Assembly: GCA_963783375.1 (NCBI GenBank)
Contig: CAWANH010000029.1
Location: 1,056,001 to 1,120,000, forward strand
DNA length: 64,000 nt
Direction of reading: 5' to 3'
Source: Candidatus Eiseniibacteriota bacterium
GTDB taxonomy: Bacteria; Eisenbacteria; RBG-16-71-46; JABDJR01
Each line of letters starts with the position of its first letter. Position 1 is the first letter of the stretch. The notes below the pieces were generated by a model that had not been told where the DNA came from, did not search any database, and saw only the letters and a program-made list of their open reading frames with translations. Positions 43,800 to 61,141 of the stretch are shown piece by piece. Position numbers and translations under genes: made by a program.

Positions 43800-44873
43800 T
43801 CAGTGATCGGCCCTCAGCGGAGGGTGGAGCAGGGTCAGCGCGTCCTGGAGGCCGGAGCTGGCCAACACCATCCCCCGGTCGTCCACCAGGACCGCCTCCA
43901 CGTTCGGCAGGCGCTCCACCAGGGACATCCCGTCCCGGGGACCCATGACGATCAGCGCGGTGGAGAGGGCATCGGCCAGGGTGGCGTCGGGAGAGATCAC
44001 CGTGGCGCTACGAAGCCCCCGGGCCGGCATCCCGGTCCGCGGGTCCAGGATGTGGTGATAACGGATCCCATTCAGGATGAAGTAGCTCTCGTAATCACCG
44101 CTGGTCGATACGGATACGTCGGTGACCCCCACGGTGGCAAAGTAGTCGGTGCCGGCTCCCCGGGGGTCGCGGATCCCCACCGTCCATGGCCGGCCGTCTT
44201 TCCGCCCCCCCGCGTACACCTGCCCTCCCCCCAGAATCAGGAAGTCGGTGACCCCGCTCGTCCGGAGCGCCCGGGCGCAAAGGTCCAGCGCGTACCCCTT
44301 GGCGATCCCCCCCAGGCCGATCTTCATTCCCGGCAAGGCGAGCCGGACGGTCCCCGCGGCGTCGTCGATCTCCACCTTCCGGTAGTCCACCAGGGCGGCG
44401 CGGAGGGCGGCCTCGGCGGAGTCGGGCACGACGGGATGAGGGGAGCGGAAGTCCCAGAGCCCCCAAAGGGCGGCCCAGGTGATGTCGAAGGCCCCGCCGG
44501 TCATCTCCCCGATGTTGATTCCCTTCCGGACCACCGCCCGGAGATCGGCGGGAACCGCGACCGCCCTTTTCCCCGCCTCGCGATTCACCGCGGAGAGCGG
44601 TGAGGTGGGCTTCCACTCGCTCATGTCGGCGTCCACCCGGCGGAAGGTCCCGAACACGGTGTCCGCGGCGGCCTGGGCCCCGGGGCCGTCGGGGACCGTG
44701 GCGGTGATGGTGGTGGCCATGGCCTCGGCGGAGAAGGTCCGGAAGGCGGTGGAGTCGCCGGCGTTCTCGCTCCCGGCGGACCCAGGCTCCCGGGCCCGGC
44801 CCGCCCAGATCGCGGCGGCGGCCAGTCCGAGCACCAGGGCGGAGAGGAAGACGATGCGGAGGTTCCGGTTCAT
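43800..44873 (-). CDS. apbE: FAD:protein FMN transferase ApbE
   Basis: AMAT, FDIT, LGGIAKGYALD, TSGDYE, HHILDP and ADALST motifs. Confidence 0.95.
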   Translation of the reverse strand: MNRNLRIVFLSALVLGLAAAAIWAGRAREPGSAGSENAGDSTAFRTFSAEAMATTITATVPDGPGAQAAADTVFGTFRRVDADMSEWKPTSPLSAVNREAGKRAVAVPADLRAVVRKGINIGEMTGGAFDITWAALWGLWDFRSPHPVVPDSAEAALRAALVDYRKVEIDDAAGTVRLALPGMKIGLGGIAKGYALDLCARALRTSGVTDFLILGGGQVYAGGRKDGRPWTVGIRDPRGAGTDYFATVGVTDVSVSTSGDYESYFILNGIRYHHILDPRTGMPARGLRSATVISPDATLADALSTALIVMGPRDGMSLVERLPNVEAVLVDDRGMVLASSGLQDALTLLHPPLRADH

Positions 44874-44958
44874 CGGGCTACGGTAGCCGATCGGGGCGGA
44901 GCCGTCGCGGTCGGAATCACGGGGCGACGGCGCGTCCCGGACCGCCCGGGAAGCGCGA

Positions 44959-45138
44959 TCAGGCGTGGGCGCCCCCGGGGTGGTCGCGCTTGTCGCAGTT
45001 GTCGCCCGCGCCGCAGGACCCGCACTGCCCCTCCACCCCGGGGGCGTCTGGATCGTGCCGGGCGAAGAATCGCTGGACCAGCACCCACCCCACGCAGAGG
45101 ACGCTCAGGGCGAGGATGCCGATCAGGTCGCCCCACAT
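44959..45138 (-). CDS. 59-aa single-TM Cys-rich protein (NqrM-like), absent from the ORF track
   Basis: MWGDLIGILALSVLCVGWVLVQRFFARHDPDAPGVEGQCGSCGAGDNCDKRDHPGGAHA; ATG lies immediately after the rnfA stop. Confidence 0.75.
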   Translation of the reverse strand: MWGDLIGILALSVLCVGWVLVQRFFARHDPDAPGVEGQCGSCGAGDNCDKRDHPGGAHA

Positions 45139-45139
45139 C

Positions 45140-45736
45140 CTAGGCGCCTCCGCTGAAGAGGCCGGCGAACCCCATGAAGGCCAGGGAGAGAACCCCGGCG
45201 ATGAGGAGGTTCATGGCCGTCCCCCGGATGAGCGCCGGGATGTTGGAGAGTTCGGCTTCCTCGCGGATCCCGGCCATCAGCACCAGGGCCAGGGTGAGTC
45301 CCCCTCCCCCGCCCAGGGCGAAGGCCACCCCCTCCACCAGGCCGTAACCCCGGCTGGTCTGGAAGAGAGCGAGGGCCAGGATCGCGCAGTTGGTGGTGAT
45401 GAGGGGAAGGAAGATCCCCAGCGCCCGGAAGAGCGCGGGGGAAAGCTTCTTGATCACCATCTCCACGAACTGCACGGTGCTGGCGATCACCACGATGAAG
45501 CTGATGAGCCGGAGATACGGGGCGTGCACCAGGATGAAGGTGTTGAGGAGCCAGGCGCAAAGGGAGGTGATGACCATGACGAAGATGTTGGCCAGCCCCA
45601 GCCGGAAGGCGGTCTCCAGGCGGCTGGACACCCCGAAGAACGGGCAGAGTCCGAGGAAGTACGAGAAGGTGAAGTTGTTGATCACCAGCGCGCTGATGAA
45701 GATCCAGAACAGGTTCGCGGGAGAGACGTTTCCCAT
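45140..45736 (-). CDS. rnfA: Rnf subunit A
   Basis: FLGLCPF, LGIFLPLITTNCAIL and MAGIRE motifs. Confidence 0.95.
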   Translation of the reverse strand: MGNVSPANLFWIFISALVINNFTFSYFLGLCPFFGVSSRLETAFRLGLANIFVMVITSLCAWLLNTFILVHAPYLRLISFIVVIASTVQFVEMVIKKLSPALFRALGIFLPLITTNCAILALALFQTSRGYGLVEGVAFALGGGGGLTLALVLMAGIREEAELSNIPALIRGTAMNLLIAGVLSLAFMGFAGLFSGGA

Positions 45737-45739
45737 GTG

Positions 45740-46390
45740 CTAAGCCGCCCTTCCCTTGACATACCGCTGGGCCAGCTTCGCCCGTCCCTCTTTCACCGCG
45801 GCGAAGACGAGCAGCAGCGAGCCGAGCATGAGGAAGCCCCCGGGGGGAAGGATCATGATCACCCAGGGCTCGAAGTGCGGCCCGAAGAGCGACACCCCGA
45901 AGAACGACCCGCTCCCCAGGATCTCCCGCAGACCGCCCAGCATGAGGAGGGCCATGAGGAAGCCTCCGCCCATCCCCAGAGCATCCATGACCGCCGGCCC
46001 CACCCGGTTCCGCGACGCGAAGGCCTCGGCGCGGCCGAGGATGATGCAGTTCACCACGATGAGGGGGATGAAGGCGCCCAGGGCCCGATGCACATCGGGG
46101 GAAAGCGCCTGAAGCGAGAAGTCGGCCACGGTGACGAAGGTGGCGATGATGATGATGTAGGTGGAGATCCGGACCTGGCGGGGAATGATGTTCCGGAAGA
46201 CCGAGATCAGGAAGCTCGACATCACCAGCACGAACAGGGTCGCGCCGCCCATGGCCAGGCCGTTGATCGCGCTGTTGGTGACGGCCAGGGTCGGGCACAT
46301 GCCGAGCACCTGGACGAAGACCGGGTTCTCCTTCCAGAGCCCCTTCAAGAACTCGGCGTAGGCCTGACCCGGTTCCTGGATCGGCGCCAT
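45740..46390 (-). CDS. rnfE: Rnf subunit E
   Basis: ENPVFVQVLGMCPTLAVT, IPLIVVNCIILGRAE and PPGGF motifs. Confidence 0.95.
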   Translation of the reverse strand: MAPIQEPGQAYAEFLKGLWKENPVFVQVLGMCPTLAVTNSAINGLAMGGATLFVLVMSSFLISVFRNIIPRQVRISTYIIIIATFVTVADFSLQALSPDVHRALGAFIPLIVVNCIILGRAEAFASRNRVGPAVMDALGMGGGFLMALLMLGGLREILGSGSFFGVSLFGPHFEPWVIMILPPGGFLMLGSLLLVFAAVKEGRAKLAQRYVKGRAA

Positions 46391-46391
46391 G

Positions 46392-47108
46392 TCACTCCCC
46401 TCCCGACCCGGCCGCGTCCGGGCGGCCGGGGGCGTCCGGCGCCTCACCCACGGGGGCGGCGCCCCCGGAATCCGGGGCCGATCCCGTCGCCGGAAGACGG
46501 GACAGCCACTCGTCGTTGGTGTTGCGAACGATCTTCACCACCGCGGTCGAGGAGATGGTGGCCCCGGTGATGGCGTCCACCTCGTTGGGGGCGTTCCGCC
46601 CCCCCTTCACCAGCTTGATCTCGGGCTGGACCGAGAGGTCCCTGAAGTTGGCGGCGAAATCGGGGTCCTTGTAGATCCGGTCCCCCAGACCCGGGGTCTC
46701 CCGGCTCTCCAGGATCTGAAGCCCCACGATCATCTCCCGCGCCGGATCGTAGCCGTACAGGAGCTCGATCGTGTCCTGGAAGCCCGCCCCCTTCCCGGGG
46801 ATGGCGTACCCCTTGAACGCGCCGGCGGAGTCGAAGGCGGCGTACACCGCCTCCGCGTCCTCGGCGCCCGATTCCTTGGGAACGAGCTGGCCGTCGGCCC
46901 ACTCCATCCGCTCCAGTTTCACCGACCCGGGAACCACCTGGAACACCGCCCGCCGGAGCGCCTCCGCCTTGTTGGCTTCGATCCGGGGGAGGGTGACCTC
47001 GTAGGCGCTCACGATGGCCAACCCGGAGAAGAGGCCGGCCAGGGCCAGGGTGATCACCAGCCGGGCGGTACGGGGTTGTGCCTCGGGAACGGGGGGCTTC
47101 GCGCTCAT
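46392..47108 (-). CDS. rnfG: Rnf subunit G
   Basis: TM helix, ETPGLG, and DAITGATISS FMN attachment motif. Confidence 0.93.
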   Translation of the reverse strand: MSAKPPVPEAQPRTARLVITLALAGLFSGLAIVSAYEVTLPRIEANKAEALRRAVFQVVPGSVKLERMEWADGQLVPKESGAEDAEAVYAAFDSAGAFKGYAIPGKGAGFQDTIELLYGYDPAREMIVGLQILESRETPGLGDRIYKDPDFAANFRDLSVQPEIKLVKGGRNAPNEVDAITGATISSTAVVKIVRNTNDEWLSRLPATGSAPDSGGAAPVGEAPDAPGRPDAAGSGGE

Positions 47109-48109
47109 GCCCGCCTCCCCCGGCCGAAGGCCCGAGGCTGGGTCGCCCGCTCGATGAGCGGGGTGACCGCGTTCATGAGCAGGATTGCGTACATGACCCC
47201 CTCGGGGAGGCCGCCCCAGATCCGGATCAACACCACCAGGACCCCGATCCCCAGACCGAACAGCCACGCCCCTCTGGGCGCCACCGGTGAAGTGACCGGA
47301 TCGGTGGCCATGAACACCGCCCCGAAGAGGAGCCCCCCGCTGAACAACATGAAGAGAGGGGAGGGAAACTTTTCCGGTGAAAGGAGATAGATCACCCCTG
47401 AAAGGACCGTGACCGTGAGGAGGATGGAGGCCGGGATCCGCCAGTCGAAAGTCCTCCGGGCCATGAGCCAGAGCCCGGCCAGGATGATCACCGCGGCGCT
47501 GGTCTCCCCCAGCGAACCCGGGATGTGCCCCCCCAGGAGCCCGGAGAGGGCGGTGGCCTGGTGCTGGAACTTCATGAGACCCAGCGGCGTGGCGGTGGTG
47601 ACCGCGTCGGCGGCAGGGTGCATGAAGGGGAGGGCGAGGTTTCCCGCCCGCACCGCGAACAGGCCTCCCGGAGCCGACCAGGTGGTGATGACGGTGGGGA
47701 AGGCGGCCTGGAGGAAAGCGCGTCCCACCAGGGCGGGGTTGAAGAGGTTGTGCCCGAGGCCTCCCCAGACGATCTTCCCCAGCCCCATGCCCACCACACC
47801 GCCCAGGAACGCCATCCAGAGCGGGAAGCCCGGGGGAAGGGTGAGCCCCAGGATGATCCCGGTCACCGCCGCGCTGCCGTCCTTGAGGGAGAGCCCGCGC
47901 CGCTCCGGCTTCAGGAACAGCCACTCGGTCCCCATGGCGCCGGCGGTGCTCGCCGCCACCACCAGGAGCGCGGAGAGCCCGAAGGTGTACATCGCCACCA
48001 GGAGCACCGGCACCAGGGCCCAGACCACATCCCCCATCAGCCGGGGAGTGGTGACCCCCTGGGCCAGGAACGGCGAGGTCTGGACCTGCAGCCTCGGTTC
48101 GCTGCTCAT
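47105..48109 (-). CDS. rnfD: Rnf subunit D
   Basis: DGSAAVTG, GGLGHNLFNPA, TTATPL, GSLGETS and FMATDPVTSP motifs. Confidence 0.95.
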   Translation of the reverse strand: MSSEPRLQVQTSPFLAQGVTTPRLMGDVVWALVPVLLVAMYTFGLSALLVVAASTAGAMGTEWLFLKPERRGLSLKDGSAAVTGIILGLTLPPGFPLWMAFLGGVVGMGLGKIVWGGLGHNLFNPALVGRAFLQAAFPTVITTWSAPGGLFAVRAGNLALPFMHPAADAVTTATPLGLMKFQHQATALSGLLGGHIPGSLGETSAAVIILAGLWLMARRTFDWRIPASILLTVTVLSGVIYLLSPEKFPSPLFMLFSGGLLFGAVFMATDPVTSPVAPRGAWLFGLGIGVLVVLIRIWGGLPEGVMYAILLMNAVTPLIERATQPRAFGRGRRA

Positions 48110-48122
48110 CGTCTTCTCGCGG

Positions 48123-49457
48123 TCATTTCGCGACCGTCTTCCGCCCGCGGATCGCCGACTTGGCCACCCGGATGAGCTGGACGACGGGGATTCCCGAGGG
48201 GCAGGCGTAGCTGCACGACCCGCACTCCATGCAGTCCATCACGAAGAACTTCTCCATCTCCTCGTAGCGGCCGGCGCGGGCCAGGCGGCCGAGGCGGGAG
48301 GGATTCAGGAAATTGGGACAGGCTTCCACGCAACGCCCGCACCGAACGCAGGTGTACTCGTTGGGGATTCGGGCCTCCGCCTCGGTGAACGCCAGGAGTC
48401 CCGAGGTGCCCTTGAGGATCGGAACGTCGAGGCTGGAGAGCGGGGAGCCCATCATCGGCCCCCCCATCACCACCTCGCGGGCCTCGGCGGTCAGCCCGCC
48501 GCAGTAGTCGAGCACCGCGCGAACCGGCGTTCCCACCGGAACCAGGAGGTTGGCCGGACGCTCGATCCCCGGCCCGGCGACCGTCACCACCCGCTCGATC
48601 AGGGGTCGCCCGTGGTCGAAGTAGTCGGCGAGAGCGGCCATCGTCCCCACGTTGTTCACCACCGTCTCGACGTCGAGGGGAAGCTTTCCCGCCGGCACCT
48701 CCACCCCGTAGATGGCGCGGATGAGCATCTTCTCCGCCCCCTGGGGATACTTCACCTTGAGCGGAACCACGCGGATCTTCGAGTCCTCGGGGATGGCGCC
48801 GCGGAGGGCCTCGATGGCGTCGGGCTTGTTGAGCTCGACCCCGATCGCCGTCTCCTCCACCCCCAATCGCTCGGCCAGGATCTCGATGCCTCGAACGATC
48901 GCTTCCGGCCGCTCCACCATGACCCGGTGGTCGGTGGTGAGGAACGGCTCGCACTCGCACCCGTTCACCACCAGGCGTCGGACCCGCTTCCCCTCGGGGA
49001 GCTTGTACTTGACGTGGGTGGGAAACGCCGCGCCTCCCATCCCCACCAGCCCCGCCCGCTGGACGTGGGCCACGAAGTCGTCGATGGACAGGCTCCGCCA
49101 GTCGATAGGGGGAAGGCCGTTGAGCTTCTGGGTGGCGAAGGGATCGGCCTCGATCTCGATGGACTCGGTGAGTCTGCCGTTGGGGTGGAGCCGCGGGGCG
49201 ATGGCCGCGATGCGGCCGGTGACCGGGCTGTGGAGGGTGGTGGAGACGAAGCCCCCCGGCTCGGCCACCAGCTGGCCGCGCACCACCCGCTCCCCCACCT
49301 CCACCACCGGACGGCAGGGCGCCCCGGTGTGCTGGCTCAAGGGCAGGATGTAACGCTCCACGAAAGGCATCCGGGCGGTCGGGAGGTGCTCGGTCTCCTC
49401 CTTGTTCTCCTCGGGATGGATGCCGTGGCGAAAGGTGCGGGGCAGAAAGCGGGTCAC
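48123..49457 (-). CDS. rnfC: Rnf subunit C
   Basis: GMGGAAFPT, NGCECEP, YPQGAEK, GGPMMG and two CxxCxxCxxxCP motifs. Confidence 0.96.
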   Translation of the reverse strand: MTRFLPRTFRHGIHPEENKEETEHLPTARMPFVERYILPLSQHTGAPCRPVVEVGERVVRGQLVAEPGGFVSTTLHSPVTGRIAAIAPRLHPNGRLTESIEIEADPFATQKLNGLPPIDWRSLSIDDFVAHVQRAGLVGMGGAAFPTHVKYKLPEGKRVRRLVVNGCECEPFLTTDHRVMVERPEAIVRGIEILAERLGVEETAIGVELNKPDAIEALRGAIPEDSKIRVVPLKVKYPQGAEKMLIRAIYGVEVPAGKLPLDVETVVNNVGTMAALADYFDHGRPLIERVVTVAGPGIERPANLLVPVGTPVRAVLDYCGGLTAEAREVVMGGPMMGSPLSSLDVPILKGTSGLLAFTEAEARIPNEYTCVRCGRCVEACPNFLNPSRLGRLARAGRYEEMEKFFVMDCMECGSCSYACPSGIPVVQLIRVAKSAIRGRKTVAK

Positions 49458-52400
49458 CGGTTCTCCTCTCCGCCGCCGTTCGCGGGCCGGGCGCCGGCCA
49501 AGGCCAGGAGACGCCCTCGTACCCGCTGGGTGAGCTCGGCTTCGGTCCGGCCCCGGGTCTCGGCCAGGCGCGCCTCGTAGTCGGCGCGGAGCGCTTCGAG
49601 GGCGGCCGCGTGTTCGTCCCGGAGCGCGGCCAGGGCTCCGGCCCGCGCTTCCTCGAGGGCGGCGGGCGGAAGCGCGGTGCCGGCCAGCTCCTGGAGCGTG
49701 CGCCAGGCGGCCATCCGCTCCTCCACCGCGCGGACCAGGGCCGGGCTCACCCGGAGCAGATTTTCCGTCTCGGGCTCACCCACCGTAGGTGTTTTCTTTT
49801 TGCGGACTTCCCCGGATAGCTTCAAGTAATCGATAAGGGGTGTCGGCTCGATGTCGTCCGCGGTCAGCGGGGTGAGCTGGGCGGCGAAGCGCCCTTCCTC
49901 CGCGGCCCAGGCCGCGGGGGTGAGCACTTCCCCGTTCCGGTTCCTGGCCCAGCCTCCCGCGGGATCCGGGTTGGCGGAGATGTCCACCCGGGGGCGTTCG
50001 CCGATTGGGTCCAGGGGCGAGCGCCGGATGAGCGGGAAGGTCCGCGCGGCCACCGCCCGCCACGCCCGGGTAAGGGCCTGGTCGGCGGGGAAGCCGTGGC
50101 GCTCCGGACTCGGAGCATGAACTCGGATGAGCGCCGGCCCGTCGAAGGCCACCGCCTCGGCGACCCCGGGCTCCAGATGCCCGGGATGGGCGATCGAGGT
50201 CTGAAGGACGTAGGCCCGCGGATGGGCCAGGGCGAAGAGCGCCACGTCGTGCCGCATGGCCGAGGAGGGTTCCGCCGCCGCCATCACGTCGCCGCTCTCG
50301 GCCAGGCCGAGGTGAGCCTCGGCGAGGAGGATCCACTTCACGGGAACGTCGCCGTCCAGAAGGTTCACGAAGCCGGCGAGCCCCGGTCCGGCCAGCGCGT
50401 CCTCGTTCACGACGAGGAAGAGCGGTGGGCACTGGGCCCGCTCTTCGGGAGTCAGGTCCCGCCAGGTGAGGCGGGCGAGCCGGGGCGCGGCCCCCGCGGC
50501 CTCGGCCGGCCGATCCAGCTCCAGACGGGCCCGGCGGATGGCCACGAACCCGTCGAGGGCTTCGCGGAGCTGGCCTTCGAGAATGCCCCGGGCGATCTCC
50601 GCGCTGTCTCCGGTGGCGTCCACGGTCACCGGCACGGCGAAGGGGTTCTCCGGGAAAGCCCCGGCCCAGGCAGCCGCGGTTCCCGGTCCCACCACCACTC
50701 CGAAGGGCGCCCGGCCGGCGCCCGACTCCCCCTCGGTGAGCCGCCAGTGGAGGTCGGCCAGGGTGCGCGCGGAGTCCACCAGGCGGCGGAGCCGGGCCAC
50801 GTCCACCCGCCCGGTCTCGAAGGCGGTCTCGATCCGGTTGGAGAGCTCGGTCAGATCCGCGTCGGGCCGGCGCACCTCCCCCAGGCCCTTGGCCAGGGCG
50901 TCGAGGTCGGCGGTGGGAAGGGCCCCGGCCATGGATTCCCGGATGGCGCCAGCCAGTTCATTTCGCGTCTTTTCAATCGTTTCCAGAGTTTCCTTGAGAC
51001 GGGGCTTCAAGTGGGCGGCGGCGCTCCCCAGGATCTGCCGCACCGCGATCCGCTCCCCCGAGCCGGGCTCGGCGGGGTCCCCGCCGGCGAGCACGTCCCG
51101 CCCGGCGCGGCCCAGAAGGTCGGCGGCCAGGGCACCGACGTCGCTCCGGGACCGGGCGATCTCCAGCGCGGCGGGCGAGGTCTCGGGGAGGGTCTCGAAG
51201 CGCCGGTGGAGCGCGCGGGCCTCGGCCAGACGATCGGAGGTCTGGGGAAGGGCGACGAGCGCCCCCGGCTCGCAGACCGCCACGCACACCCCGCAGGCCT
51301 TGCAGGCATCGGGGTTCACGGCCAGGGTGAACAGGTCCCCGCTTCCCCGCATGGTCCGCTCGGGGACCTCGAAGAAGGGCTTGGTGCGAGCCACGGGAAG
51401 ATCGGCGATCTCCTCGCGAACCGCTCCGAAGGCCTCGGCGAGGCCGGCCTTCCGGTCCTCGGGCAAGGGCATCTTCTCGATCAGGCTCGTGAACGCACTC
51501 GCGAACAGCGGGCCGGCCGTGGCGCCCGCGGTGTCCTGAGCGGCCAGATCCTGGTTCACCCGCGCGGCGAGCTTCGAGGCGGCCATGCGAAGCGCGTCGG
51601 CGCTTCGGCCCCGCTCGCGGGCCCGGGCCATGCCGAAGTCGAGAAGGGCGGAGGCGGAGAGAACCGCCGGCTCCACCGCGCCGTCGGGACACGCGCTCCA
51701 GCAGGCGCCACAGGCGGTGCAGAGCGCGGGTTCGAAGGCGGGAAGGGTCGCGCGCGCGCCGGATAGGTCGGCGAAGGTCGAGGCCAGGGGAGGCACCGCG
51801 CCCACCGCCAGGTACGGATCGGGAACCAGCCCTTCGGCGGAGTGGTCGCGCGCCAGCACCCCGACCTGGTCCCAGAACCGGGGAAGGCTGTCCATGGTGT
51901 CGTCGGCCTTCCCCAAGCGGCGGACCGCGGCGGGGGCGCCAAGCTCACCTTCGGGAGCGGCCTCGGCGGTGGCGACGTCGGAGCCCATCGCCTCCAGGAG
52001 CGCCACCTCCCCGAACCCGGCCAGACAGGAATCACCCTCCGGCTCTCCCCCCGCCGTTTCCTTCCGGGCGGCGGCCAGCTTCCGCGGGTTGAGATCGACC
52101 TTCCCCTCGGCCTTCAACACGCCGAGAAGGGCGCCGGCCACCCGCGCGTCGCGCTCGGCGCGGGGCGCGTCGTGGGCCACCGCGACCGCGTAGAGCCTCA
52201 AGGTGTTTTCGCGGGCGGAACGGCGCACCGCCTCCCCCAGCTGCGTCAGCAACCCGCCCGAGGCCGGGTCCCGGACCACCAGGAGAAAGGCGCCGGGCCG
52301 GAGCCCCTCCAGAGCCTCCGCGGGGACCGGAGTTCCCGATCCGATCCACACCGCGCCTTCGGGGGCGACGTCGTCCCCGGGGTCCTTCAGATCGTCCGGC

Positions 52401-54058: not shown

Positions 54059-54902
54059 GAAGCCTCCGACCGGGAGCCGTGGGCTCCTCCTCGGTGAACT
54101 GTTGGCCCGCCACCCACTGGATTGCGCCGGTGGGGCAGCGCCAGGTCGCGACGGGAGAGGCCGGCCCGCCCGCCGCGTAGTCCACGACGGGGAGATTGTT
54201 TTCCATGCGGATGAGACCGGGAGGGGCGTCCTGGGCGCAACGGCCGCAGGCGTCGCAGACCACCTTGCACACCGCGCGCGCCTCATCGGCGGCGAGCGGG
54301 GCCATGCACTGGACGATCAGCCGGTGGCTCACCGGAAGGATCTCGAAGAGGTCGCGGGGGCAGGCGGTCACGCAGTCCCCGCAGGCGGTGCACTTGTCCA
54401 CGTCCACCACCGGGAGCCGCATCTCGTTCATGCTGATGGCGTCGAAGGTGCATGAGACCTCGCAGTCCGCGAGCCCCAGGCATCCCCACGAGCACTTGAG
54501 CCCGCCGCCCCCCACCAGGTGCGCCCCCCGGCAGCTCTCGTATCCCGAGTACTCCGCGGTGCGGGCGGCGCGGCCGAGCCCGCCGGCGCAGTGGAGGCGG
54601 GCCACCCGCTTCTCCTCCGCCCCCGGGTCCACCCCGAGGAACTCGGCAATCAACTCGATGCCCTCCGGGCTCGACACCGTGCACTTGCTCGGGGCCAGGG
54701 CCCCGGCAACCACCTTCTCCGCCAGGCCGCGGCAGCCCGGCTCGCCGCAGGCCCCGCAGTTGGATCCGGGAAGCATGCCTTCCACCGTCTCCACCCGGGG
54801 GTCTTCCTCGACCCGGAGGAAGCGATAGGCGACGGCGAGGATGACCCCGAAGGTCAACCCCAGCCCGCCCATGATGATCGCCGCCTGGATCAGGTTGCTC
54901 AC
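54051..54902 (-). CDS. rnfB: Rnf subunit B
   Basis: TM helix, LPGSNCGACGEPGC, GCLGLADC and DKCTACGDCVTACP motifs. Confidence 0.93.
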   Translation of the reverse strand: MSNLIQAAIIMGGLGLTFGVILAVAYRFLRVEEDPRVETVEGMLPGSNCGACGEPGCRGLAEKVVAGALAPSKCTVSSPEGIELIAEFLGVDPGAEEKRVARLHCAGGLGRAARTAEYSGYESCRGAHLVGGGGLKCSWGCLGLADCEVSCTFDAISMNEMRLPVVDVDKCTACGDCVTACPRDLFEILPVSHRLIVQCMAPLAADEARAVCKVVCDACGRCAQDAPPGLIRMENNLPVVDYAAGGPASPVATWRCPTGAIQWVAGQQFTEEEPTAPGRRLHG

Positions 54903-54911
54903 GCCGCGCTC

Positions 54912-57437
54912 CTAGTTGAACTTCGCCGCCCGCTGGACCAGATCCTCGAGACCGGGTTCCTCGGGGTTCAGGGGCGCGCCGGGGTGGATGATGCGGGCCG
55001 GACACTTCTCCGCCGCCCGCACCAGGTCCGAGAAGGTTCCCGCCTTGACGTCCTGGATGAAGGCCTTCTTGTCCGCGTTGTAGGCGAACATCTGCGGGTT
55101 CAGGTTCGTGCACTCGTTGCAGGTGGTGCAGAGATCGGTGTCGATGTAGGCCTCGAGGGCCATCGGCTCCTCTTCGGCGGGGGCGGGGGCCGGCTCGGCC
55201 GCCGCGGGGGCCGCCGGCTCCGAGGCCTCGGCGGGAGCGGCCACCGGGGCCGGGCGGGTCGCCGGCATGCCCGCGCCCAGCACCGTCGAGGCGTCCGCGC
55301 TCAACAGGGCGGCGGTGAGGCGGTCGGCCACATCCTCCGCCGCGCTCAGGCGTACGGCCTCGAGTTCCGCCGCGTGTTCGGCCTTCAGGGTATCCAGCTC
55401 CTCCGCCGTCCGGGCGGCCGCCTCCTCGCGGGCCCGCTTGACCGCGTCCTCGACATACTCGCTCCGGACCCCGGCCAGCTCCTGGAGGGTGCGCCAGAAG
55501 TCCAAACGGTCCCTGGCGGCCAGGGCCAACCGCCGGGTCACCGCAAGGCGGGTCATCCGGTTGGACGCGTCCACCGCCCAGATGAAGGGGACCCGGGAAG
55601 CGGCCTCCTCGGACTCGAGGGTAAGCCACTCGGCCAGGGTCGCCAGGACGTCATCGGGAATTTCATCGGGAACGGGAAGGAAATGGGCGGCATAGGCCGG
55701 CTCCAGGAGCGCGAAGTCGGCGAAGGTGAAGGGAAGGGCGATCCGGCCGTCCCTGCCGTCCGCCTCGACCACTTCCAGCTCGTAGACCGGCCAGTCGCCC
55801 TCCGGCCCGGGGTTCTCCGAGAAATCCAGACGCCGGGCCCAGGTCGCCCCCGCTTCGGGGTCGTACCGGAAGAGGGGATGGGCGCGGCCTTCCAGGGCGG
55901 CCCCGGCGTACAGCCAGGCGCCCAGGCGTGGCTCGCCGGTCCCGAGCCCCCCGCCCAGGGCCACCACGTGGAGGGCGGGATGGCTGGCCCGGACCGCCCG
56001 GGTGAAGCCTTCCATCATGTGGAGGGGACGCGCGGCGGAGGTCTCGTTCACCAGCGCCTCGCGATGGCTGATTCCCAGATAGCCGGGCTCGAACCGGTAG
56101 CCGGCCAGGGGGTCATCGAGACGGGTGGCGGGCGCGTCGTGGTGGACCGGCTCCCCCGCCGCCGGGTTCTCGGCCGGGTTCACCGCGACCAGGATCTGCA
56201 CCGGACGCCCGGAGAGGATCAGCCGGGAGACCGAGAGCATGCCCTCGGCGGCCACGTGGCGGGCGGAGACCATCGCCACCACCGGGGACAGAAGCAGAAG
56301 CTCGTCGAGGCTCATGGCTTCCCAGTCGAACTGGGCCAGCCAGGGGTCGTGGCGGGCGGGTTCGTAGGCGCCCTTGACCTCCAGCCGGGCGGTGCGGACC
56401 GCCTTCAACGTGTCGGCGAGCCAGGCCGCCTGCTCGTCGAACCGCTCCGCCGCTTCCAGGCAGGGGTCGGCATGTTCCACCACCTGCCAACCTTCCAGGC
56501 TCCGGGCCCGGTCGAGGGATCCGTCATGCACCAGATGGAGCGGCGGCTCCGTCTCGGCGGTGAATGACTCGAGGGCGGCCACGGCGTGCTCCACGCGTTT
56601 CCGCCGGGGGGGGCTCATGGCCAGGCTTCCCCGGGGGGCGCCCAGGGTGCCGGCCAGGGCCGAGGCGTCGATGAACCGGGATCCGGCGTTCCCCATGGAT
56701 CCGTCCAGACTATCCGCCTCCCGGGACTCCGGACGCTTCCGCCGGTCGATCTCCAGCAGGGCGCGAAGCTCGCCGGCCAGTCGCTTCACTTCGACGGCGA
56801 AGGCGGCGCGCCGGGGGCGGAGCCGGCTCCGGGCCGCCTGCTCCAGGAGAATCACCGGTGCGTGCTCGCTCCAGGGAAGGAACCGAGCCCCGTCGGGGAC
56901 CCCGTCCATGAACGCAACGAGGGACTCCTTGAGAATCCGGGCGTCGCCGGCGGGGAGCTTGAGCTCGGCGGCAAGCTCCCGCATCGCGTTCTCGAGGACC
57001 CGGCGGGCGTCGAGCGGGTCGGTCGCGCCGGCCGCAGCCTGGCGCACCCGGCGCTCGAGGCGGAGGAGGTTGTCCCGGAGAATGCGCGACGACTCCCCTT
57101 CGGGAACGGTGCGGGCCAGGAACTCGGTCACCGGGACGCAAAGCGCGTTCTCCGGGTCGTCCTCCAACGGAGGCAGGTAGAGCGGATAGTCCGAGCGCAC
57201 CTTGGCGGGATCGCGGAACGGAGCGAGGAGCGCGGGCAGGAGCCCCGCCCCGGTCACCGCATCCGTGCCCTCGGAAAGGGACCCGGCCAGGTGGAACCGG
57301 CGGAGATCCATCACCGCCTCCACCGGCGCCGCCCTCTCCCCTCCGGGGGGGATCGCCGCTCCGGTCATCTCGGGCATGACCGGTTTCCCGGTCGCCGGCG
57401 GAGTCTTCTGCTCTTCAGGGGCCATCCTCGTCTCCAT
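54912..57437 (-). CDS. PFOR C-terminal-like domain fused to a C-terminal ferredoxin (841 aa)
   Basis: PLFRYDP, TFADFA and FWRTLQELAG motifs, an Ala/Pro linker, then CTTCNEC...AEKCP. Confidence 0.75.
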   Translation of the reverse strand: METRMAPEEQKTPPATGKPVMPEMTGAAIPPGGERAAPVEAVMDLRRFHLAGSLSEGTDAVTGAGLLPALLAPFRDPAKVRSDYPLYLPPLEDDPENALCVPVTEFLARTVPEGESSRILRDNLLRLERRVRQAAAGATDPLDARRVLENAMRELAAELKLPAGDARILKESLVAFMDGVPDGARFLPWSEHAPVILLEQAARSRLRPRRAAFAVEVKRLAGELRALLEIDRRKRPESREADSLDGSMGNAGSRFIDASALAGTLGAPRGSLAMSPPRRKRVEHAVAALESFTAETEPPLHLVHDGSLDRARSLEGWQVVEHADPCLEAAERFDEQAAWLADTLKAVRTARLEVKGAYEPARHDPWLAQFDWEAMSLDELLLLSPVVAMVSARHVAAEGMLSVSRLILSGRPVQILVAVNPAENPAAGEPVHHDAPATRLDDPLAGYRFEPGYLGISHREALVNETSAARPLHMMEGFTRAVRASHPALHVVALGGGLGTGEPRLGAWLYAGAALEGRAHPLFRYDPEAGATWARRLDFSENPGPEGDWPVYELEVVEADGRDGRIALPFTFADFALLEPAYAAHFLPVPDEIPDDVLATLAEWLTLESEEAASRVPFIWAVDASNRMTRLAVTRRLALAARDRLDFWRTLQELAGVRSEYVEDAVKRAREEAAARTAEELDTLKAEHAAELEAVRLSAAEDVADRLTAALLSADASTVLGAGMPATRPAPVAAPAEASEPAAPAAAEPAPAPAEEEPMALEAYIDTDLCTTCNECTNLNPQMFAYNADKKAFIQDVKAGTFSDLVRAAEKCPARIIHPGAPLNPEEPGLEDLVQRAAKFN

Positions 57438-57538
57438 CGGGATCCTCCCGGCCGCCGCCTACCGGCGAACGGTCCAGTCCGGTTTCCACCCGTAGCTCGG
57501 CCTCCGGACCGGCCGCGGATGGGTCTCGCGCCGCTCGC

Positions 57539-58492
57539 TCAGATGGCGAAGCGGTCCAGGGCGTTCTTCATCCCCTCGAGCCTCTCCTCCGCGGTCATTT
57601 CCATCCCCTGGGCGGTGTACTCGTCGTAACGGGGAGCGTCGGGGTTCCGGTAGAAGAGGCCGATGGCCAGCGGATCGACGCTCTCCGCCAGCTCCCGCGC
57701 CTTGGCCAGATCCGAGGGATCGTGCTCGAGCTGGTTCTTGTACATCTTGGCCACGGGGGGATCGGCGGTGATTCCCTTCTCGTGGGTGAGGAGCTGGATC
57801 GCGTCCGGGTTGTCCCGCACCGAGTCGAAGATGTGATCGGTGTAGGTGGGACAGCGCTGGAGGATGTGGACGAAGCTCAGGCCCTTGTGGTGGTAGGCGG
57901 CGAGAAGCGTCTGGTAGAGGTGGAGCGGATTCCAGTCCACCGTCCTCGCCACGAACGACACGTTGGTGAACCCCAGGGTGGCCTGGAGCGGGTTCAAGGG
58001 CGGGAGCCAGGCTCCGCGGGGATGGGTGTTGGTGGAGAAGCCGATCGGGGTGGTGGGCGAAGTCTGCTTCTTGGTGAGCCCGTAGACGTTGTTGTCGAAG
58101 AGCATCACCGTCATGTCCATGTTGTACCGCACGGCGTGGATCCAGTGCCCGGCGCCGATGGAGCAGCAGTCGCCGTCCCCGGTGGCGACCCACACCTGCA
58201 TGTCGGGGCGGCGGGACTTGATCCCCTCGGCCACCGGCAGCGCGCGGCCGTGAAGGCCGTGGAACCCGTAGGCGTGCATGTAGTGGGGGAAGCGGCTGGA
58301 GCAGCCGATCCCCGAGACCGAGGCGATCTTCTCCGGGGGAATCTGCTCGTCCCGGCAAATGCGCTGGACCGCGCTCAGGACCGCGTGGTCTCCGCAGGCC
58401 GGGCACCACCGGGCCACCCCGCCCTCGTAGTTTTCGAGGGTGAAGTAACGATCCGGAACTTCGAGGGACCAATCCGTCTTCAATCCGAACAT
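57539..58492 (-). CDS. 2-oxoacid:ferredoxin oxidoreductase beta subunit
   Basis: WCPACGD, SGIGCSSR, HGRALP, GDGD and NNVYGLTK motifs. Confidence 0.95.
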   Translation of the reverse strand: MFGLKTDWSLEVPDRYFTLENYEGGVARWCPACGDHAVLSAVQRICRDEQIPPEKIASVSGIGCSSRFPHYMHAYGFHGLHGRALPVAEGIKSRRPDMQVWVATGDGDCCSIGAGHWIHAVRYNMDMTVMLFDNNVYGLTKKQTSPTTPIGFSTNTHPRGAWLPPLNPLQATLGFTNVSFVARTVDWNPLHLYQTLLAAYHHKGLSFVHILQRCPTYTDHIFDSVRDNPDAIQLLTHEKGITADPPVAKMYKNQLEHDPSDLAKARELAESVDPLAIGLFYRNPDAPRYDEYTAQGMEMTAEERLEGMKNALDRFAI

Positions 58493-58577
58493 CTGACCTC
58501 TCCTTCGGCCGCGGCCGAGTGGGTGTCGTGCCCGATGACCCGCCGGAGCCCGTCGAGGCCCGGCCGGCGCCCGGACG

Positions 58578-60506
58578 TCAAGCCTTGACCGTCTCCCGTC
58601 CCGTCGTCTTTCCCATCCGCTTCAGGGCCTCCCGCACGATCATGGACGGCGGAATCGGGTGGCCGGGGACGATCGACCAGCAGTCGATGTCCATGAGCGT
58701 CCGCTCCCGGAGCAGGACGGCGAGCTGGCCGGTGCGCCGGTTCGTCTCGTCGATGAGCGGCGACTCGGGATCATCGCTGTAGTTGATTTCCATGGTCAGC
58801 ACCTTCTTGAACTTCGAGAAGATCTCCTTCAGGCCCGGTTCCAGGGGCGAGAGGAACCGGAGGTGCACCGAAGAAACCGCGTGGCCGTCGGCCCGCATCC
58901 GGTCCACCGATTCCTGGATGGAACCCTCGCTGGATCCCCAGCCCACGATCAGGAGGTCCCCCTCCGGGCCGCCGTAGACCTCCGGGGGCTTGAGGGAACG
59001 GCCCAGGGCGGCCAGCTTCCGGCTCCTCATGTCGCAGCCGAGCTGGTTGGAGACGGTGTCGTAGGCCACCTTGCCCCAGCGGGTGTGGGCGAGCCCGGTG
59101 AGCACGTACTCCCCGCCGGGCTGGCCGGGAATCGGACGCGGGCTCAACCCCGTCTCCGGGTCCCACTCGTAGGGGGCCACCCCCTCCTCCCACGGCGACT
59201 GGTCCACCGGCGGTGCGAACCACTCGGCGGCCACCTCGGGACGGGGGAATGGCTGAACGCCGGTGGCCAGGTTGGCGTCGGTGAGGACCAGGACCGGGGT
59301 CCGGAAGTCCTCGGCCAGCTTGCGGGCCATGACCATGAAGTGGAAGCACTCCTCGATGGTGGCCGGGGCGATCACCACCTTGGGGGAGTCGCCGGGGGCC
59401 CCGTAGATCGCGGCCAGGAGGTCACCCTGCTCCACCTTGGTGGGTAGGCCGGTGGATGGACCGCCGCGCTGGACCACCAGGAGCACCAGCGGAATCTCCG
59501 CCATGACCGCGAAGCCGATGAACTCGGTCTTCAGAGCCATCCCGGGGCCCGAGGTGATGGTGCAGGCCGTCTTCCCGGCGTAGCTCGCTCCAAGGGCGAA
59601 GCCGATGGCCGCGATCTCGTCCTCGGCCTGATGCAGGCACCCTCCGGTCCGGATGAAGGCGCCGCCCAGGTAGTGGGACACCGAGGTGGCGGGAGTGATG
59701 GGGTACATCGCCGCCATCTCCATCCCCGAGGCCATGATGCCCAGCCCCGCGGCCTGGTTCCCGTTCATCACCACCAGAGGCTTGTCGTTTTCCCATCGCG
59801 GAACCTCGAAGGCCATCGCGATGTTCTCCTCGGCGTAGCGGTAGCCCGCCTCCACCAGCTTCTGGTTCAAGGCGATGACCTTGTCCCCCTTCCGCCCGAA
59901 GACGAACCGCACTTCGTCCATGGCCTTCTGGAGGTCTCGCCCGTAGATCTCGCAGAGCATGCCGAGGACGAACATGTTCTTCCCGACCCTCGCCTCCGGC
60001 GCCACCGCGGCAACCTTCTCCTCGATGGGTGTCTCGTGTACCACGAAACCCAGCTCCCGGAACTCCGCCACCGACGCCGCGTACTGCTTGCGGATTTCCT
60101 CCTGGGGATCCTCGGCCCACTTGCTCTCGAGGAGGATCACCGTCCCCTTCTTGAACGCGTTCGACTCGATCCGGCCGTAGAGCACCTGCTCGTTGAAGGC
60201 GACCACGAGGTCGGCCTCGTCACCCATGTTGGTAACGTACTTGGAGCCGAATCGCACGCGGATGCCGCTGGCGCCGGCGCGGGAGCGGGCCGGGGGCTTG
60301 ATCTCGGCGGGGATGATCTCCACCGTCCAGACCCCGTTCCCCATCTTCGCGCTCACCGTCCCGAAGGTCTGGCCCGCCTTCTGGGCCCCTTCGCCGGAAT
60401 CGCTCACGATCTCGACGATCTGCTCTTCCACGCGGGTGCGGGAGCCGTTCCGGTCCGGGGCGCTCTCGCCCGCCGTCGTGAAAACTCTTGTTTCATTCTT
60501 GGTCAT
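58578..60506 (-). CDS. 2-oxoacid:ferredoxin oxidoreductase alpha subunit (gamma-alpha fusion)
   Basis: DSGEGA, YPITPAT, AEDEIAA, TSGPG and QRGGPSTGLPT motifs. Confidence 0.95.
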   Translation of the reverse strand: MTKNETRVFTTAGESAPDRNGSRTRVEEQIVEIVSDSGEGAQKAGQTFGTVSAKMGNGVWTVEIIPAEIKPPARSRAGASGIRVRFGSKYVTNMGDEADLVVAFNEQVLYGRIESNAFKKGTVILLESKWAEDPQEEIRKQYAASVAEFRELGFVVHETPIEEKVAAVAPEARVGKNMFVLGMLCEIYGRDLQKAMDEVRFVFGRKGDKVIALNQKLVEAGYRYAEENIAMAFEVPRWENDKPLVVMNGNQAAGLGIMASGMEMAAMYPITPATSVSHYLGGAFIRTGGCLHQAEDEIAAIGFALGASYAGKTACTITSGPGMALKTEFIGFAVMAEIPLVLLVVQRGGPSTGLPTKVEQGDLLAAIYGAPGDSPKVVIAPATIEECFHFMVMARKLAEDFRTPVLVLTDANLATGVQPFPRPEVAAEWFAPPVDQSPWEEGVAPYEWDPETGLSPRPIPGQPGGEYVLTGLAHTRWGKVAYDTVSNQLGCDMRSRKLAALGRSLKPPEVYGGPEGDLLIVGWGSSEGSIQESVDRMRADGHAVSSVHLRFLSPLEPGLKEIFSKFKKVLTMEINYSDDPESPLIDETNRRTGQLAVLLRERTLMDIDCWSIVPGHPIPPSMIVREALKRMGKTTGRETVKA

Positions 60507-60697
60507 GAGCTCTCCCTGCCTTCTCTTCGTCGAGCTGGGTTTTTTCGGGTGTATGTCCGTTTCCGGCTTTGCGGTTGGGGCCGTTTCGGGGTCCGAGGCC
60601 GCTGGCCGCCCTCTCTGGCATCAGGTCCTCAGTCGGTCGGTCTCCGTCTCCGGGGGCGCGTTCCTGAGGTCAACCCCTCACGGGGCGTGCGTCGTCC

Positions 60698-61141
60698 TCA
60701 ACTGCTCTCCCCCAGATCGGTGTACATGGCGTCGCCCAAGAGCGAGGTTTCTCGGGCCTCGTGGACCTGGACCCGCTGGGACAGCGCGGTCACCTCCCGC
60801 ATCACCTCGGCCAGCGGCCCGTCCAGGCACGCCCGGGCCTTCTCCGAGACCCGGTTGACCTGGGCAAGAAGCTCCCGGTGCTCGTCGAGGAGACGCTGGA
60901 GGTTGGCGAGCAGGTGCGGCGCGGTGTCTCCGATGATCTCGTGGAAACCGCTCGGCGCCTCCTCGCGGGTAAAGTGGATCTCCAGGCGCATCCGGAATTC
61001 TTCCAGCATCGGCACCAGGACCCGAAGGTCGCTGGTCTTTTCCATGCGCCCCAGGCTCTCCTTGAGGGCGCTGTGCTCGTGGGCAATCTGGTCCCTCGGA
61101 GCCTGGTCGGCGGAATTCAGACCGGAGCGCTGCTCTTTCAT
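60698..61141 (-). CDS. Hemerythrin (HHE) domain protein
   Basis: HEH, HFTREE, EH and HEARE ligand pattern; AGGAG RBS. Confidence 0.75.
   Translation of the reverse strand: MKEQRSGLNSADQAPRDQIAHEHSALKESLGRMEKTSDLRVLVPMLEEFRMRLEIHFTREEAPSGFHEIIGDTAPHLLANLQRLLDEHRELLAQVNRVSEKARACLDGPLAEVMREVTALSQRVQVHEARETSLLGDAMYTDLGESS

What the first reader, a model, noticed from the sequence alone, without database searches (positions are those of the whole stretch)
43800..61141. Rnf operon interleaved with an active OFOR and two PFOR-derived subunits, a candidate oxoacid-driven ion-pumping supercomplex
Seen: one co-directional run of hemerythrin, OFOR alpha, OFOR beta, 841-aa PFOR-like/ferredoxin, rnfB, 1534-aa PFOR-like, rnfC, D, G, E, A, a microprotein and apbE. 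rnfB overlaps the 1534-aa gene by 8 bp, which overlaps rnfC by 4 bp. Known: canonical operons are rnfABCDGE or rnfCDGEAB and use soluble ferredoxin. Inference: the PFOR paralogues wire OFOR directly to RnfB, coupling 2-oxoacid oxidation (or reverse carboxylation) to ion translocation. I know of no biochemical characterisation of this arrangement.
Basis: partly seen in the sequence, partly recalled or inferred. Interest (0 to 1): 0.8.

Follow-up and report, generated by a model that had tools for sequence, protein, structure and literature searches.

The report
Rnf pump with dead-PFOR ferredoxin arm
This operon packs the Rnf membrane ion pump together with an intact two-subunit 2-oxoacid oxidoreductase and two pyruvate-oxidoreductase relatives that have lost their catalytic residues, one carrying a ferredoxin on a flexible tether, which likely lets the enzyme hand electrons straight to the pump; parts of the gene order are in print, but I found no biochemical test.

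Summary
The gene order and the 8- and 4-bp overlaps are confirmed (minus strand). KorAB keeps every catalytic motif. The 1534-aa protein is a full-length PFOR pseudoenzyme: ThDP, catalytic-Glu and proximal-cluster ligands are gone, two [4Fe-4S] motifs remain. The 841-aa protein is a paralogue of its C-terminal half plus a tethered ferredoxin. Both are under purifying selection. The order is conserved across several phyla, and the three special parts co-occur in 37 of 43 positive genomes among 201 searched. Both dead proteins are paralogues of an intact 1,650-aa PFOR-ferredoxin fusion that occupies the same rnfB-rnfC slot in sister operons; where that fusion joins this operon, the 841-aa protein lacks its ferredoxin. 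Best reading (0.55): a scaffolded 2-oxoglutarate:NAD+ ion-pumping assembly with a swinging-arm ferredoxin. No physical contact is shown. The backbone is the known rnfBCDGEA type. The order appears in a 2014 paper and a 2019 supplement, both taking the genes for ordinary PFOR. This scan reported the system before in at least 13 other genomes. New variant of a known kind; interest 0.68.

The parts
60698..61141 (-). Hemerythrin-like (HHE) protein, 147 aa; first gene; accessory
   Evidence: PF01814 E 5e-7; present in 8 of 60 testable related loci
58578..60506 (-). KorA, OFOR alpha (domains III-I-II), 642 aa, catalytic motifs intact
   Evidence: TIGR03710 509 bits over cut-off 483; best PDB match M. 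marinus OGOR 6N2N_A E 3.5e-84; YPITP and EDE motifs in 89 of 89 same-type loci
57539..58492 (-). KorB, OFOR beta (ThDP domain VI, proximal [4Fe-4S]), 317 aa; Arg67 at the position of MmOGOR beta residue 63
   Evidence: PF02775, PF12367; alignments to 5B46_B and 6N2N_B; CxxC, GDGD, QxC in 93 of 93, Arg in 91 of 93
54912..57437 (-). 841-aa dead PFOR domain-VI paralogue with helical insertions, 54-residue C-terminal helix (660-713), disordered linker (714-757) and single-cluster ferredoxin (760-841)
   Evidence: hhalign to the 1534-aa family 100%, E 4e-52; AF2 pTM 0.77; VIA Z 23.5, rmsd 4.8, 286 aligned to 6CIN; PF13370 and 1DAX match; dN/dS 0.20
54051..54902 (-). RnfB, 283 aa, 20 Cys, polyferredoxin type
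   Evidence: TIGR01944 79 over 69
49454..54058 (-). 1534-aa full-length PFOR pseudoenzyme; keeps two domain-V [4Fe-4S] motifs (C780-C790, C919-C929); lost YPITP, catalytic Glu, GDG and proximal Cys
   Evidence: AF2 of residues 700-1534 pTM 0.84, VIA Z 29.1, rmsd 4.2, 477 aligned to 6CIO; dN/dS 0.22 over residues 1-970
48123..49457 (-). RnfC, 444 aa
   Evidence: TIGR01945 522 over 246
47105..48109 (-). RnfD, 334 aa
   Evidence: TIGR01946 318 over 207
46392..47108 (-). RnfG, 238 aa, flavinylation motif DAITGAT
   Evidence: TIGR01947 100.6 against cut-off 102; PF04205; sequence
45740..46390 (-). RnfE, 216 aa
   Evidence: TIGR01948 241 over 213 (run on the longer GTG-start frame); ATG start
45140..45736 (-). 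RnfA, 198 aa
   Evidence: TIGR01943 224.5 against cut-off 229.3
44959..45138 (-). 59-aa protein, hydrophobic N-terminal stretch and Cys-rich tail; NqrM-like build (resemblance only)
   Evidence: no Pfam hit; a 36-99-aa ORF with 3 or more Cys follows rnfA in 79 of 95 testable loci
43800..44873 (-). ApbE flavin transferase, 357 aa
   Evidence: PF02424 E 7e-84

Best explanation
The operon encodes a complete rnfBCDGEA-type Rnf pump, an intact KorAB and two catalytically dead PFOR paralogues, which likely form a scaffold on Rnf so that the ferredoxin tethered to the 841-aa protein would carry electrons between KorAB and RnfB. Shown: gene content and order; intact KorAB motifs; loss of ThDP, Glu and proximal-cluster ligands in both paralogues; paralogy with an intact PFOR-ferredoxin fusion (LP) that fills the same rnfB-rnfC slot in sister operons; purifying selection. 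Predicted (AF2): PFOR domain V/VI folds, long C-terminal helices, a disordered 45-residue tether. Inferred: the 1534-aa protein keeps LP's docking role on Rnf; the 841-aa protein binds KorAB and the 1534-aa protein through the shared helical insertions and C-terminal helices; the substrate is 2-oxoglutarate; net reaction 2-oxoglutarate + CoA + NAD+ -> succinyl-CoA + CO2 + NADH with ion export (probably H+ here) under anoxia in this organism, and possibly the ion-driven reverse (carboxylation) in sulfur oxidisers. The two 1534-aa clusters would be an optional relay.
For: Synteny 65/70, 67/73, 60/65, 47/51. In 201 genomes of one gammaproteobacterial order, the 841-aa type (42), this KorB type (42) and the 1534-aa type (38) coincide: 37 have all three, 158 none (kin are not independent). 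The intact LP sits between rnfB and rnfC in 38 of 40 hand-picked gammaproteobacterial loci and directly after rnfB in 71 of 80 metagenome loci, so the slot itself is tied to Rnf. In LP operons that add korAB, a 335-aa minimal homologue of the 841-aa protein follows korB (47 of 80 loci; hhalign 97.9%, E 6e-13), so KorAB comes with such an adaptor. Ferredoxin bookkeeping: 0 of 77 1534-type, 100 of 107 841-type and 86 of 87 LP proteins carry the C-terminal ferredoxin; 6 of the 7 841-type records without it (5 distinct loci) sit directly before an LP that has it. Each operon type has its own RnfC clade (supports 1.0, 1.0, 0.93). dN/dS 0.20 and 0.22. sucCD is inserted after the 1534-aa gene in 6 of the 80 loci and 6 of 20 further loci, pointing to succinyl-CoA. 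All members are transcribed at similar levels in the Escarpia symbiont cluster of the same order (PMC6315080 Table S1).
Against: No physical interaction is shown. G425 has korAB plus an 841-type protein with three tandem ferredoxins and no RnfC, LP or 1534-type match; G001 has korAB plus 841-type but no 1534-type match; both are genomes of unstated completeness. In Thiotrichaceae loci the genes are scattered (L062, L069, L074, L077), although 1534-type genes occur in the three such genomes searched and same-type rnfC in the two searched. This is the genome's only Rnf, and the genome also has an ordinary PFOR, a second KorAB, a further POR-type alpha/beta pair and at least one small free ferredoxin, so this Rnf may also serve a soluble pool. 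LP without rnf in view: L123, L124.
Confidence: 0.55

Rival explanations
1. Two separate modules share an operon. KorAB plus the 841-aa protein is a soluble enzyme with a built-in ferredoxin; the 1534-aa protein is an Rnf accessory or assembly factor; they couple by diffusion or through free ferredoxin, with no stable supercomplex.
For: korAB plus 841-type without a matching Rnf or 1534-type gene in G425 and G001; korAB plus 841-type apart from an LP-type Rnf in G005; operon split in G572 and in Thiotrichaceae. Free ferredoxin present.
Against: Loss of the 841-type ferredoxin exactly where LP supplies one is hard to explain unless the 841-type protein and LP sit in one particle; near-perfect co-occurrence; the gene order interleaves the two modules around rnfB.
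Confidence: 0.25
2. A fixed wire: electrons pass from KorB through the 841-aa ferredoxin and the two clusters of the 1534-aa protein into RnfB, and these clusters are required.
For: Both domain-V motifs are kept in 72 of 78 homologues and 69 of 77 locus proteins; the gene overlaps rnfB and rnfC.
Against: Seven Planctomycetota loci have neither motif yet keep the whole operon and the 841-type ferredoxin; RnfB is a full 20-Cys polyferredoxin that needs no completion.
Confidence: 0.1
3. The dead paralogues are regulators or protectors rather than couplers, for example sensing CoA esters through the retained domain III or shielding oxygen-labile clusters, with the hemerythrin as oxygen sensor.
For: Full-length fold retained; the residues that replace the ligands are themselves conserved (E997 in 77 of 78, S1000 in 78 of 78); many hosts are facultative or microaerobic by their record titles.
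Against: Does not explain the conserved tethered ferredoxin or its complementation by LP; the hemerythrin is in only 8 of 60 loci.
Confidence: 0.07
4. The two genes are decaying relics of a duplicated PFOR with no present role.
For: They evolve faster than korAB and rnf (dN/dS 0.20-0.22 against 0.07-0.13), and some homologues are shortened or split.
Against: dN/dS well below 1; full-length open frames across several phyla; invariant family-specific residues.
Confidence: 0.03

Closest known systems
'rTCA cycle cluster 2' of the Escarpia laminata symbiont (Rubin-Blum et al. 2019, PMC6315080; main-text passages, Text S1 passages and whole Table S1 seen; Fig. S4 not seen)
   Same: Table S1 lists sucD, sucC, por, rnfB, por-like, korB, korA, nuoF*, frdx*, ferredoxin: the order of my loci L244, L245, L258, L259. 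All are expressed; Text S1 says rnf clusters are colocalised and cotranscribed with por genes.
   Different: It treats por as an active PFOR and Rnf as recycling a ferredoxin pool. It does not mention lost catalytic residues, a tethered ferredoxin or a complex with Rnf. I did not have the Escarpia sequence; loci with the same order carry the dead type.
rnf2 operon (rnfBCDGEA) of the Solemya velum symbiont (Dmytrenko et al. 2014, PMC4287430; passages seen)
   Same: PFOR genes between rnfB2 and rnfC2; pyruvate proposed as electron donor for Rnf.
   Different: One sentence, no analysis; whether it is the intact LP type or the dead type was not checked; korAB not mentioned in the passage.
Rnf complexes with solved structures (C. 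tetanomorphum 7ZC6, A. woodii, A. vinelandii; review PMC12174285, passages seen)
   Same: Six core subunits, ApbE for flavinylation, RnfB as electron entry from ferredoxin.
   Different: The review describes RnfB accepting electrons from cytoplasmic ferredoxins; the only extra subunit in the passages seen is cofactor-free RnfH.
Two-subunit OGOR of Magnetococcus marinus (6N2N) and Sulfolobus OFOR (5B46)
   Same: Domain order, catalytic motifs, beta Arg at the 6N2N residue-63 position.
   Different: These lack domain V and use free ferredoxin (recalled; the Joule 2019 paper is not held). KorA here has a longer domain-III loop (EIKPPARSRAGASG) and travels with a ferredoxin-bearing adaptor.
Homodimeric PFOR (M. 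thermoacetica 6CIN, D. africanus 1B0P; TIGR02176)
   Same: The 1534-aa protein keeps domains I, II, III, V, VI in order; the 841-aa protein keeps domain VI.
   Different: No ThDP or proximal-cluster ligands; large helical insertions and a long C-terminal helix; 124 bits against a cut-off of 911.

Membership tests
Rnf complex | Six subunits RnfA, B, C, D, E, G | tested here: met
   Best NCBIfam hits are Rnf models for all six; B, C, D, E over cut-off, G (100.6/102) and A (224.5/229.3) just under
Rnf complex | Cofactor ligands (RnfC two [4Fe-4S], RnfB polyferredoxin, RnfG flavinylation Thr, RnfA/RnfE Cys pairs) | tested here: met
   Cys motifs; DAITGAT, GLCP/TNC, GMCP/VNC read from the sequences; motif roles recalled
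Rnf complex | Ferredoxin:NAD+ activity with Na+ or H+ translocation | not testable with these tools
   The F-ATPase c subunit reads FIEALTIY, without the Na+-site Ser/Thr and Gln (signature recalled), hinting at H+
rnfBCDGEA operon type | Order B-C-D-G-E-A | tested here: met
   type named in PMC3534657; one gene inserted between B and C
Two-subunit OFOR (KorAB) | Alpha YPITP, catalytic Glu, Arg; beta GDG ThDP motif and proximal-cluster Cys | tested here: met
   TIGR03710 over cut-off; TIGR02177 233 under its cut-off 262
2-oxoglutarate-specific OGOR | Preference for 2-oxoglutarate | tested here: inconclusive
   Arg at the MmOGOR beta-63 position in 91 of 93 (its role is recalled, paper not held) and sucCD insertion in 6 of 80 loci; needs an assay
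PFOR (1534-aa protein) | Domain architecture I-II-III-V-VI | tested here: met
PFOR (1534-aa protein) | YPITP loop and catalytic Glu | tested here: not met
   ATFPA in place of YPITP; Pro at the Glu position in 62 of 78; YPITP in 0 of 77
PFOR (1534-aa protein) | GDG ThDP/Mg motif and proximal [4Fe-4S] Cys | tested here: not met
   GDG column variable; Cys positions hold E997 (77/78), S1000 (78/78), S1317 (70/78)
PFOR (1534-aa protein) | Two domain-V [4Fe-4S] motifs | tested here: met
   72 of 78 homologues
PFOR/OFOR beta (841-aa protein) | Domain-VI fold | tested here: met
   VIA Z 23.5 to 6CIN, 19.2 to 9BT4; Foldseek E 1.2e-6
PFOR/OFOR beta (841-aa protein) | ThDP motif and cluster Cys | tested here: not met
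   Only two Cys before the ferredoxin domain; no GDG in the consensus
Single-cluster ferredoxin (841-aa C-terminus) | CxxCxxC...CP | tested here: met
   C770, C773, C776, C812; PF13370; 1FXR Foldseek rmsd 0.9 over 58
NqrM maturation factor (59-aa protein) | DUF539 profile match | tested here: inconclusive
   No Pfam hit at E 1; same build and position beside apbE as described in PMC12174285

The most novel reading that the evidence does not exclude
A widespread, undescribed class of respiratory complex: an ion-pumping 2-oxoacid:NAD+ oxidoreductase in which Rnf carries a PFOR-derived cytoplasmic platform with exactly one kind of swinging-arm ferredoxin and interchangeable catalytic heads (LP for pyruvate, KorAB for 2-oxoglutarate, or both), built in this lineage from two pseudoenzymes, and run backwards for CO2 fixation in sulfur-oxidising symbionts, where the gene annotated as the cycle's PFOR would be dead.
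Probability: 0.45. Interest if true: 0.88.

Novelty: new variant of a known kind. Interest (0 to 1): 0.68.

Why it matters
Rnf is understood as exchanging electrons with a diffusible ferredoxin pool. A tethered, scaffolded route would let a cell conserve the roughly 170-180 mV gap (recalled values) between 2-oxoglutarate oxidation and NAD+ as ion motive force, or spend ion motive force on carboxylation, while keeping low-potential electrons away from oxygen and competing enzymes. The layout is common: 295 matching stretches in one genome per species and 42 of 201 genomes in one order, including bivalve symbionts and marine sediment bacteria by record title. It also changes annotation: the 1534-aa gene is labelled PFOR in databases and probably in symbiont carbon-fixation models, but it lacks the residues for the PFOR reaction. 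It is also a clear case of an enzyme duplicating into two dead copies that divided up its non-catalytic parts.

Tried and rejected
No RNA holder was listed for window 49500-59400; that is no evidence on expression. Promoter and terminator scans were at chance level (0 promoters against 0.5 expected; 7 terminators against 7.3), and no FNR, CRP or Rex consensus was found upstream. A search for ATP-citrate lyase (PF16114) found nothing, but the control genomes did not ring either, so it is uninformative. My recollection that korABCD is interleaved with rnf in tubeworm symbionts was wrong: it is interleaved with flx-hdr. The idea that KorAB replaces a missing 2-oxoglutarate dehydrogenase is rejected here: E1 is present. 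The RnfB tail differs by operon type (GxQF with korAB, a basic tail without), but types are separate RnfC clades, so this is one event and I did not count it. The 'prox' and 'GDG' flags for 1534-type proteins are regex artefacts (domain-V motif, shifted windows) and were ignored in favour. In one search proteins under 1350 aa (1534/LP) or 650 aa (841-type) were left out, and some loci are the same genome fetched twice. L018 was dropped from alignments A5-A7 for a short ORF call. Literature searches: korABCD+Rnf, rnfBCDGEA, rnfB/rnfC/korAB/gene cluster/ferredoxin oxidoreductase, 'between rnfB', PFOR+Rnf+supercomplex, Allochromatium+rnf, MmOGOR Arg63 (85), pseudoenzyme+ferredoxin oxidoreductase+Rnf (123, 0 papers), fused or C-terminal ferredoxin+PFOR+Rnf. 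None gave a biochemical study or a note of the dead residues; most hits were seen as listings only. Biegel 2011 and Chen 2019 are not held, and most subscription papers are not searched. Passages of PMC12542636, PMC5317091, PMC4853749 and PMC9324843 had nothing on this layout. Inter-protein co-evolution was not attempted: about 70 paired rows are too few.

Full report
OBSERVATION. The 13 genes lie on the minus strand from 61141 to 43800 with gaps of 191, 85, 101, 9, -8, -4, 13 and -4 bases down to rnfG, and 1, 3, 1 and 85 after it. Pfam and NCBIfam give hemerythrin, OFOR alpha and beta, six Rnf subunits and ApbE. GC content matches the rest of the window. A genome of the same genus (G032) is the record behind L002, titled Candidatus Eisenbacteria. 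Without the insert the order is rnfBCDGEA, a type named in PMC3534657 (passage).

THE ACTIVE ENZYME. KorA's best solved relative is M. marinus OGOR (6N2N_A, E 3.5e-84). YPITP and EDE are present in 89 of 89 KorA, and CxxC, GDGD and QxC in 93 of 93 KorB, from loci of this type. KorB has Arg at the position of residue 63 of 6N2N beta, where the broad-range Sulfolobus enzymes have Lys; that this Arg binds the 2-oxoglutarate carboxylate is recalled, as the paper is not held. In 6 of 80 loci and 6 of 20 further loci, sucC and sucD are inserted right after the 1534-aa gene. In 3 of 60 and 7 of 20, SdhB-like, SdhA-like and NuoF-like genes precede korA. Both point to the succinyl-CoA step.

THE 1534-AA PROTEIN aligns end to end with PFOR domains I, II, III, V and VI; the AF2 model of residues 700-1534 (pTM 0.84) matches 6CIO at Z 29.1. 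In 78 homologues YPITP has become consensus ASFPA, the catalytic Glu position holds Pro in 62, the GDG column is variable, and proximal-cluster Cys positions hold Glu (77), Ser (78) and Ser (70). Both domain-V cluster motifs remain in 72. Among 77 full-length locus proteins, 69 keep both motifs, 1 keeps one, and 7, all from Planctomycetota records, keep neither.

THE 841-AA PROTEIN is a paralogue of residues 750-1520 of the 1534-aa protein without the cluster motifs (hhalign 100%). Its model (pTM 0.77) has a domain-VI core (Z 23.5 to 6CIN), long helical insertions, a 54-residue helix, a disordered Ala/Pro linker (714-757) and a single-cluster ferredoxin. Against a close relative (L001) dN/dS is 0.20 for this gene and 0.22 for the 1534-aa gene (first 970 codons), against 0.07-0.13 for korA, korB and rnfB. 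They are maintained, under looser constraint.

CONSERVATION. One scan of one genome per species found 295 stretches encoding an 841-type relative; I examined the best 80, titled Eisenbacteria, Planctomycetota, Gammaproteobacteria, Thermoanaerobaculia and Gemmatimonadota. korB is directly upstream in 65 of 70 testable loci, rnfB directly downstream in 67 of 73, the 1534-type gene next in 60 of 65, rnfC in 47 of 51. Of 20 further loci picked for long contigs, 19 have korAB-841-rnfB-1534. In 201 genomes of one gammaproteobacterial order, 42 have the 841 type, 42 this KorB type and 38 the 1534 type; 37 have all three and 158 none. Relatives are not independent, so this is a description, not a test.

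ORIGIN. Both dead proteins are paralogues of an intact PFOR of about 1,650 aa (LP) that has YPITP, the Glu, GDG, all cluster Cys and the same C-terminal ferredoxin. LP sits between rnfB and rnfC in 38 of 40 hand-picked gammaproteobacterial loci, and directly after rnfB in 71 of 80 metagenome loci. In 47 of those 80, korAB and a 335-aa gene precede rnfB; that gene is a minimal homologue of the 841-aa protein (97.9%, E 6e-13). Four layouts result: I, rnfB-LP-rnf; II, korAB-335-rnfB-LP-rnf; III, korAB-841-rnfB-1534-rnf (this window); and a hybrid, korAB-841-LP-rnfB-1534-rnf. In an RnfC tree of 136 sequences, I and II are each one clade (1.0) and III with the hybrids a third (0.93), the hybrids lying next to the window's lineage; the tree is midpoint-rooted, so the order of events is open. 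The C-terminal ferredoxin is on 86 of 87 LP, 100 of 107 841-type and 0 of 77 1534-type proteins, and 6 of the 7 841-type records lacking it are hybrids in which LP follows and has it. The operons thus keep one source of tethered ferredoxin, which argues that these proteins share one particle.

MECHANISM (inferred). The 1534-aa protein keeps LP's place on Rnf. The 841-aa protein, like the 335-aa one, recruits KorAB. Its ferredoxin swings between KorB's proximal cluster and RnfB, which in solved Rnf complexes is the entry point for cytoplasmic ferredoxin (PMC12174285 passage). In this genome, which also has 2-oxoglutarate dehydrogenase E1, the unit would be the anoxic, energy-conserving route from 2-oxoglutarate to succinyl-CoA and NADH. 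The ATP synthase c subunit lacks the recalled Na+ signature, so H+ is the likelier ion. In sulfur oxidisers with the fumarate-reductase-like, NuoF-like and sucCD genes, the reverse direction is plausible.

AGAINST. No contact between proteins is shown. G425 has korAB and an 841-type protein with three ferredoxins but no RnfC, LP or 1534-type match; G001 lacks a 1534-type match; G572 and several Thiotrichaceae have the genes apart. LP has no rnf in view in L123 and L124. The window's genome has only this Rnf, plus other OFORs and a small free ferredoxin, so a soluble route may run in parallel.

WHAT IS KNOWN. PMC4287430 (passages) notes PFOR genes between rnfB2 and rnfC2 in the Solemya symbiont. 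PMC6315080 Table S1 (whole table) lists sucD, sucC, por, rnfB, por-like, korB, korA, nuoF*, frdx*, ferredoxin as 'rTCA cycle cluster 2' with expression of 2.37 (por), 2.64 (por-like), 2.70 (korA), 2.98 (korB) and 1.65 (rnfB) log(TPM+1); its Text S1 (passages) reads por as an active PFOR; its Fig. S4 could not be seen. PMC11636981 (passage) reports korAB and a 'PFOR-like' gene decreasing together under sulfide limitation; one of its supplements was unreadable. Nine literature searches found no note of the dead residues or the tether, and no biochemistry; subscription papers are mostly outside the library. Earlier notes of this scan describe the same system in at least 13 other genomes; my four-layout analysis preceded, and those notes are not independent support.

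VERDICT. Observation confirmed; interpretation partly supported and sharpened. New variant of a known kind; scaffolded tethered-ferredoxin coupling 0.55; interest 0.68.

Noticed in passing
L136:1905-2924 and 46 other loci among L123-L202: A 335-aa protein with no real Pfam hit between korB and rnfB in LP-type operons is a minimal PFOR domain-VI derivative ending in a conserved short helix (D.LA.WLL) like the tip of the 841-aa C-terminal helix.
   Followed up: partly
L229 (G425:C65:168271-171063): 841-type protein of 972 aa with three tandem tethered ferredoxins after korAB, in a genome where no RnfC, LP or 1534-type gene was found.
   Followed up: partly
L028, L041, L043, L243-L245, L248, L250, L258, L259, upstream of korA: SdhB-like, SdhA-like (no membrane anchor seen) and NuoF-like genes: a candidate soluble NADH-dependent fumarate reductase attached to the operon.
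   Followed up: partly
L003, L005, L007, L010, L016, L040, L066: Planctomycetota 1534-type proteins that have lost both domain-V cluster motifs, so carry no cofactor ligands at all.
   Followed up: partly
L115 and L116 (G056); L203 with L051 (G156): Single genomes carry two Rnf operons, one of the LP type and one of the korAB/dead-PFOR type.
   Followed up: partly
L012:1727-6403: A divergently transcribed nqr-like operon lies directly upstream of korA.
   Followed up: no
RnfB C-termini in L001-L262: The RnfB tail is WxxGxQF in korAB-containing operons and a longer basic tail (KG..A(K/R).I.RK) in LP-only operons.
   Followed up: partly
L122 (G052:C9): korAB followed by an 841-type gene broken into several pieces.
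   Followed up: no
window 61462-64000 (+): Large protein with a signal-like N-terminus, open at the window end, divergent from the operon; a similar gene flanks the operon in L002 and L076.
   Followed up: no
window 43001-43708 (-) and 41160-42875 (-): Downstream: a 235-aa protein with a signal-like N-terminus and no Pfam hit, then an L,D-transpeptidase (YkuD, scaffold and peptidoglycan-binding domains).
   Followed up: no
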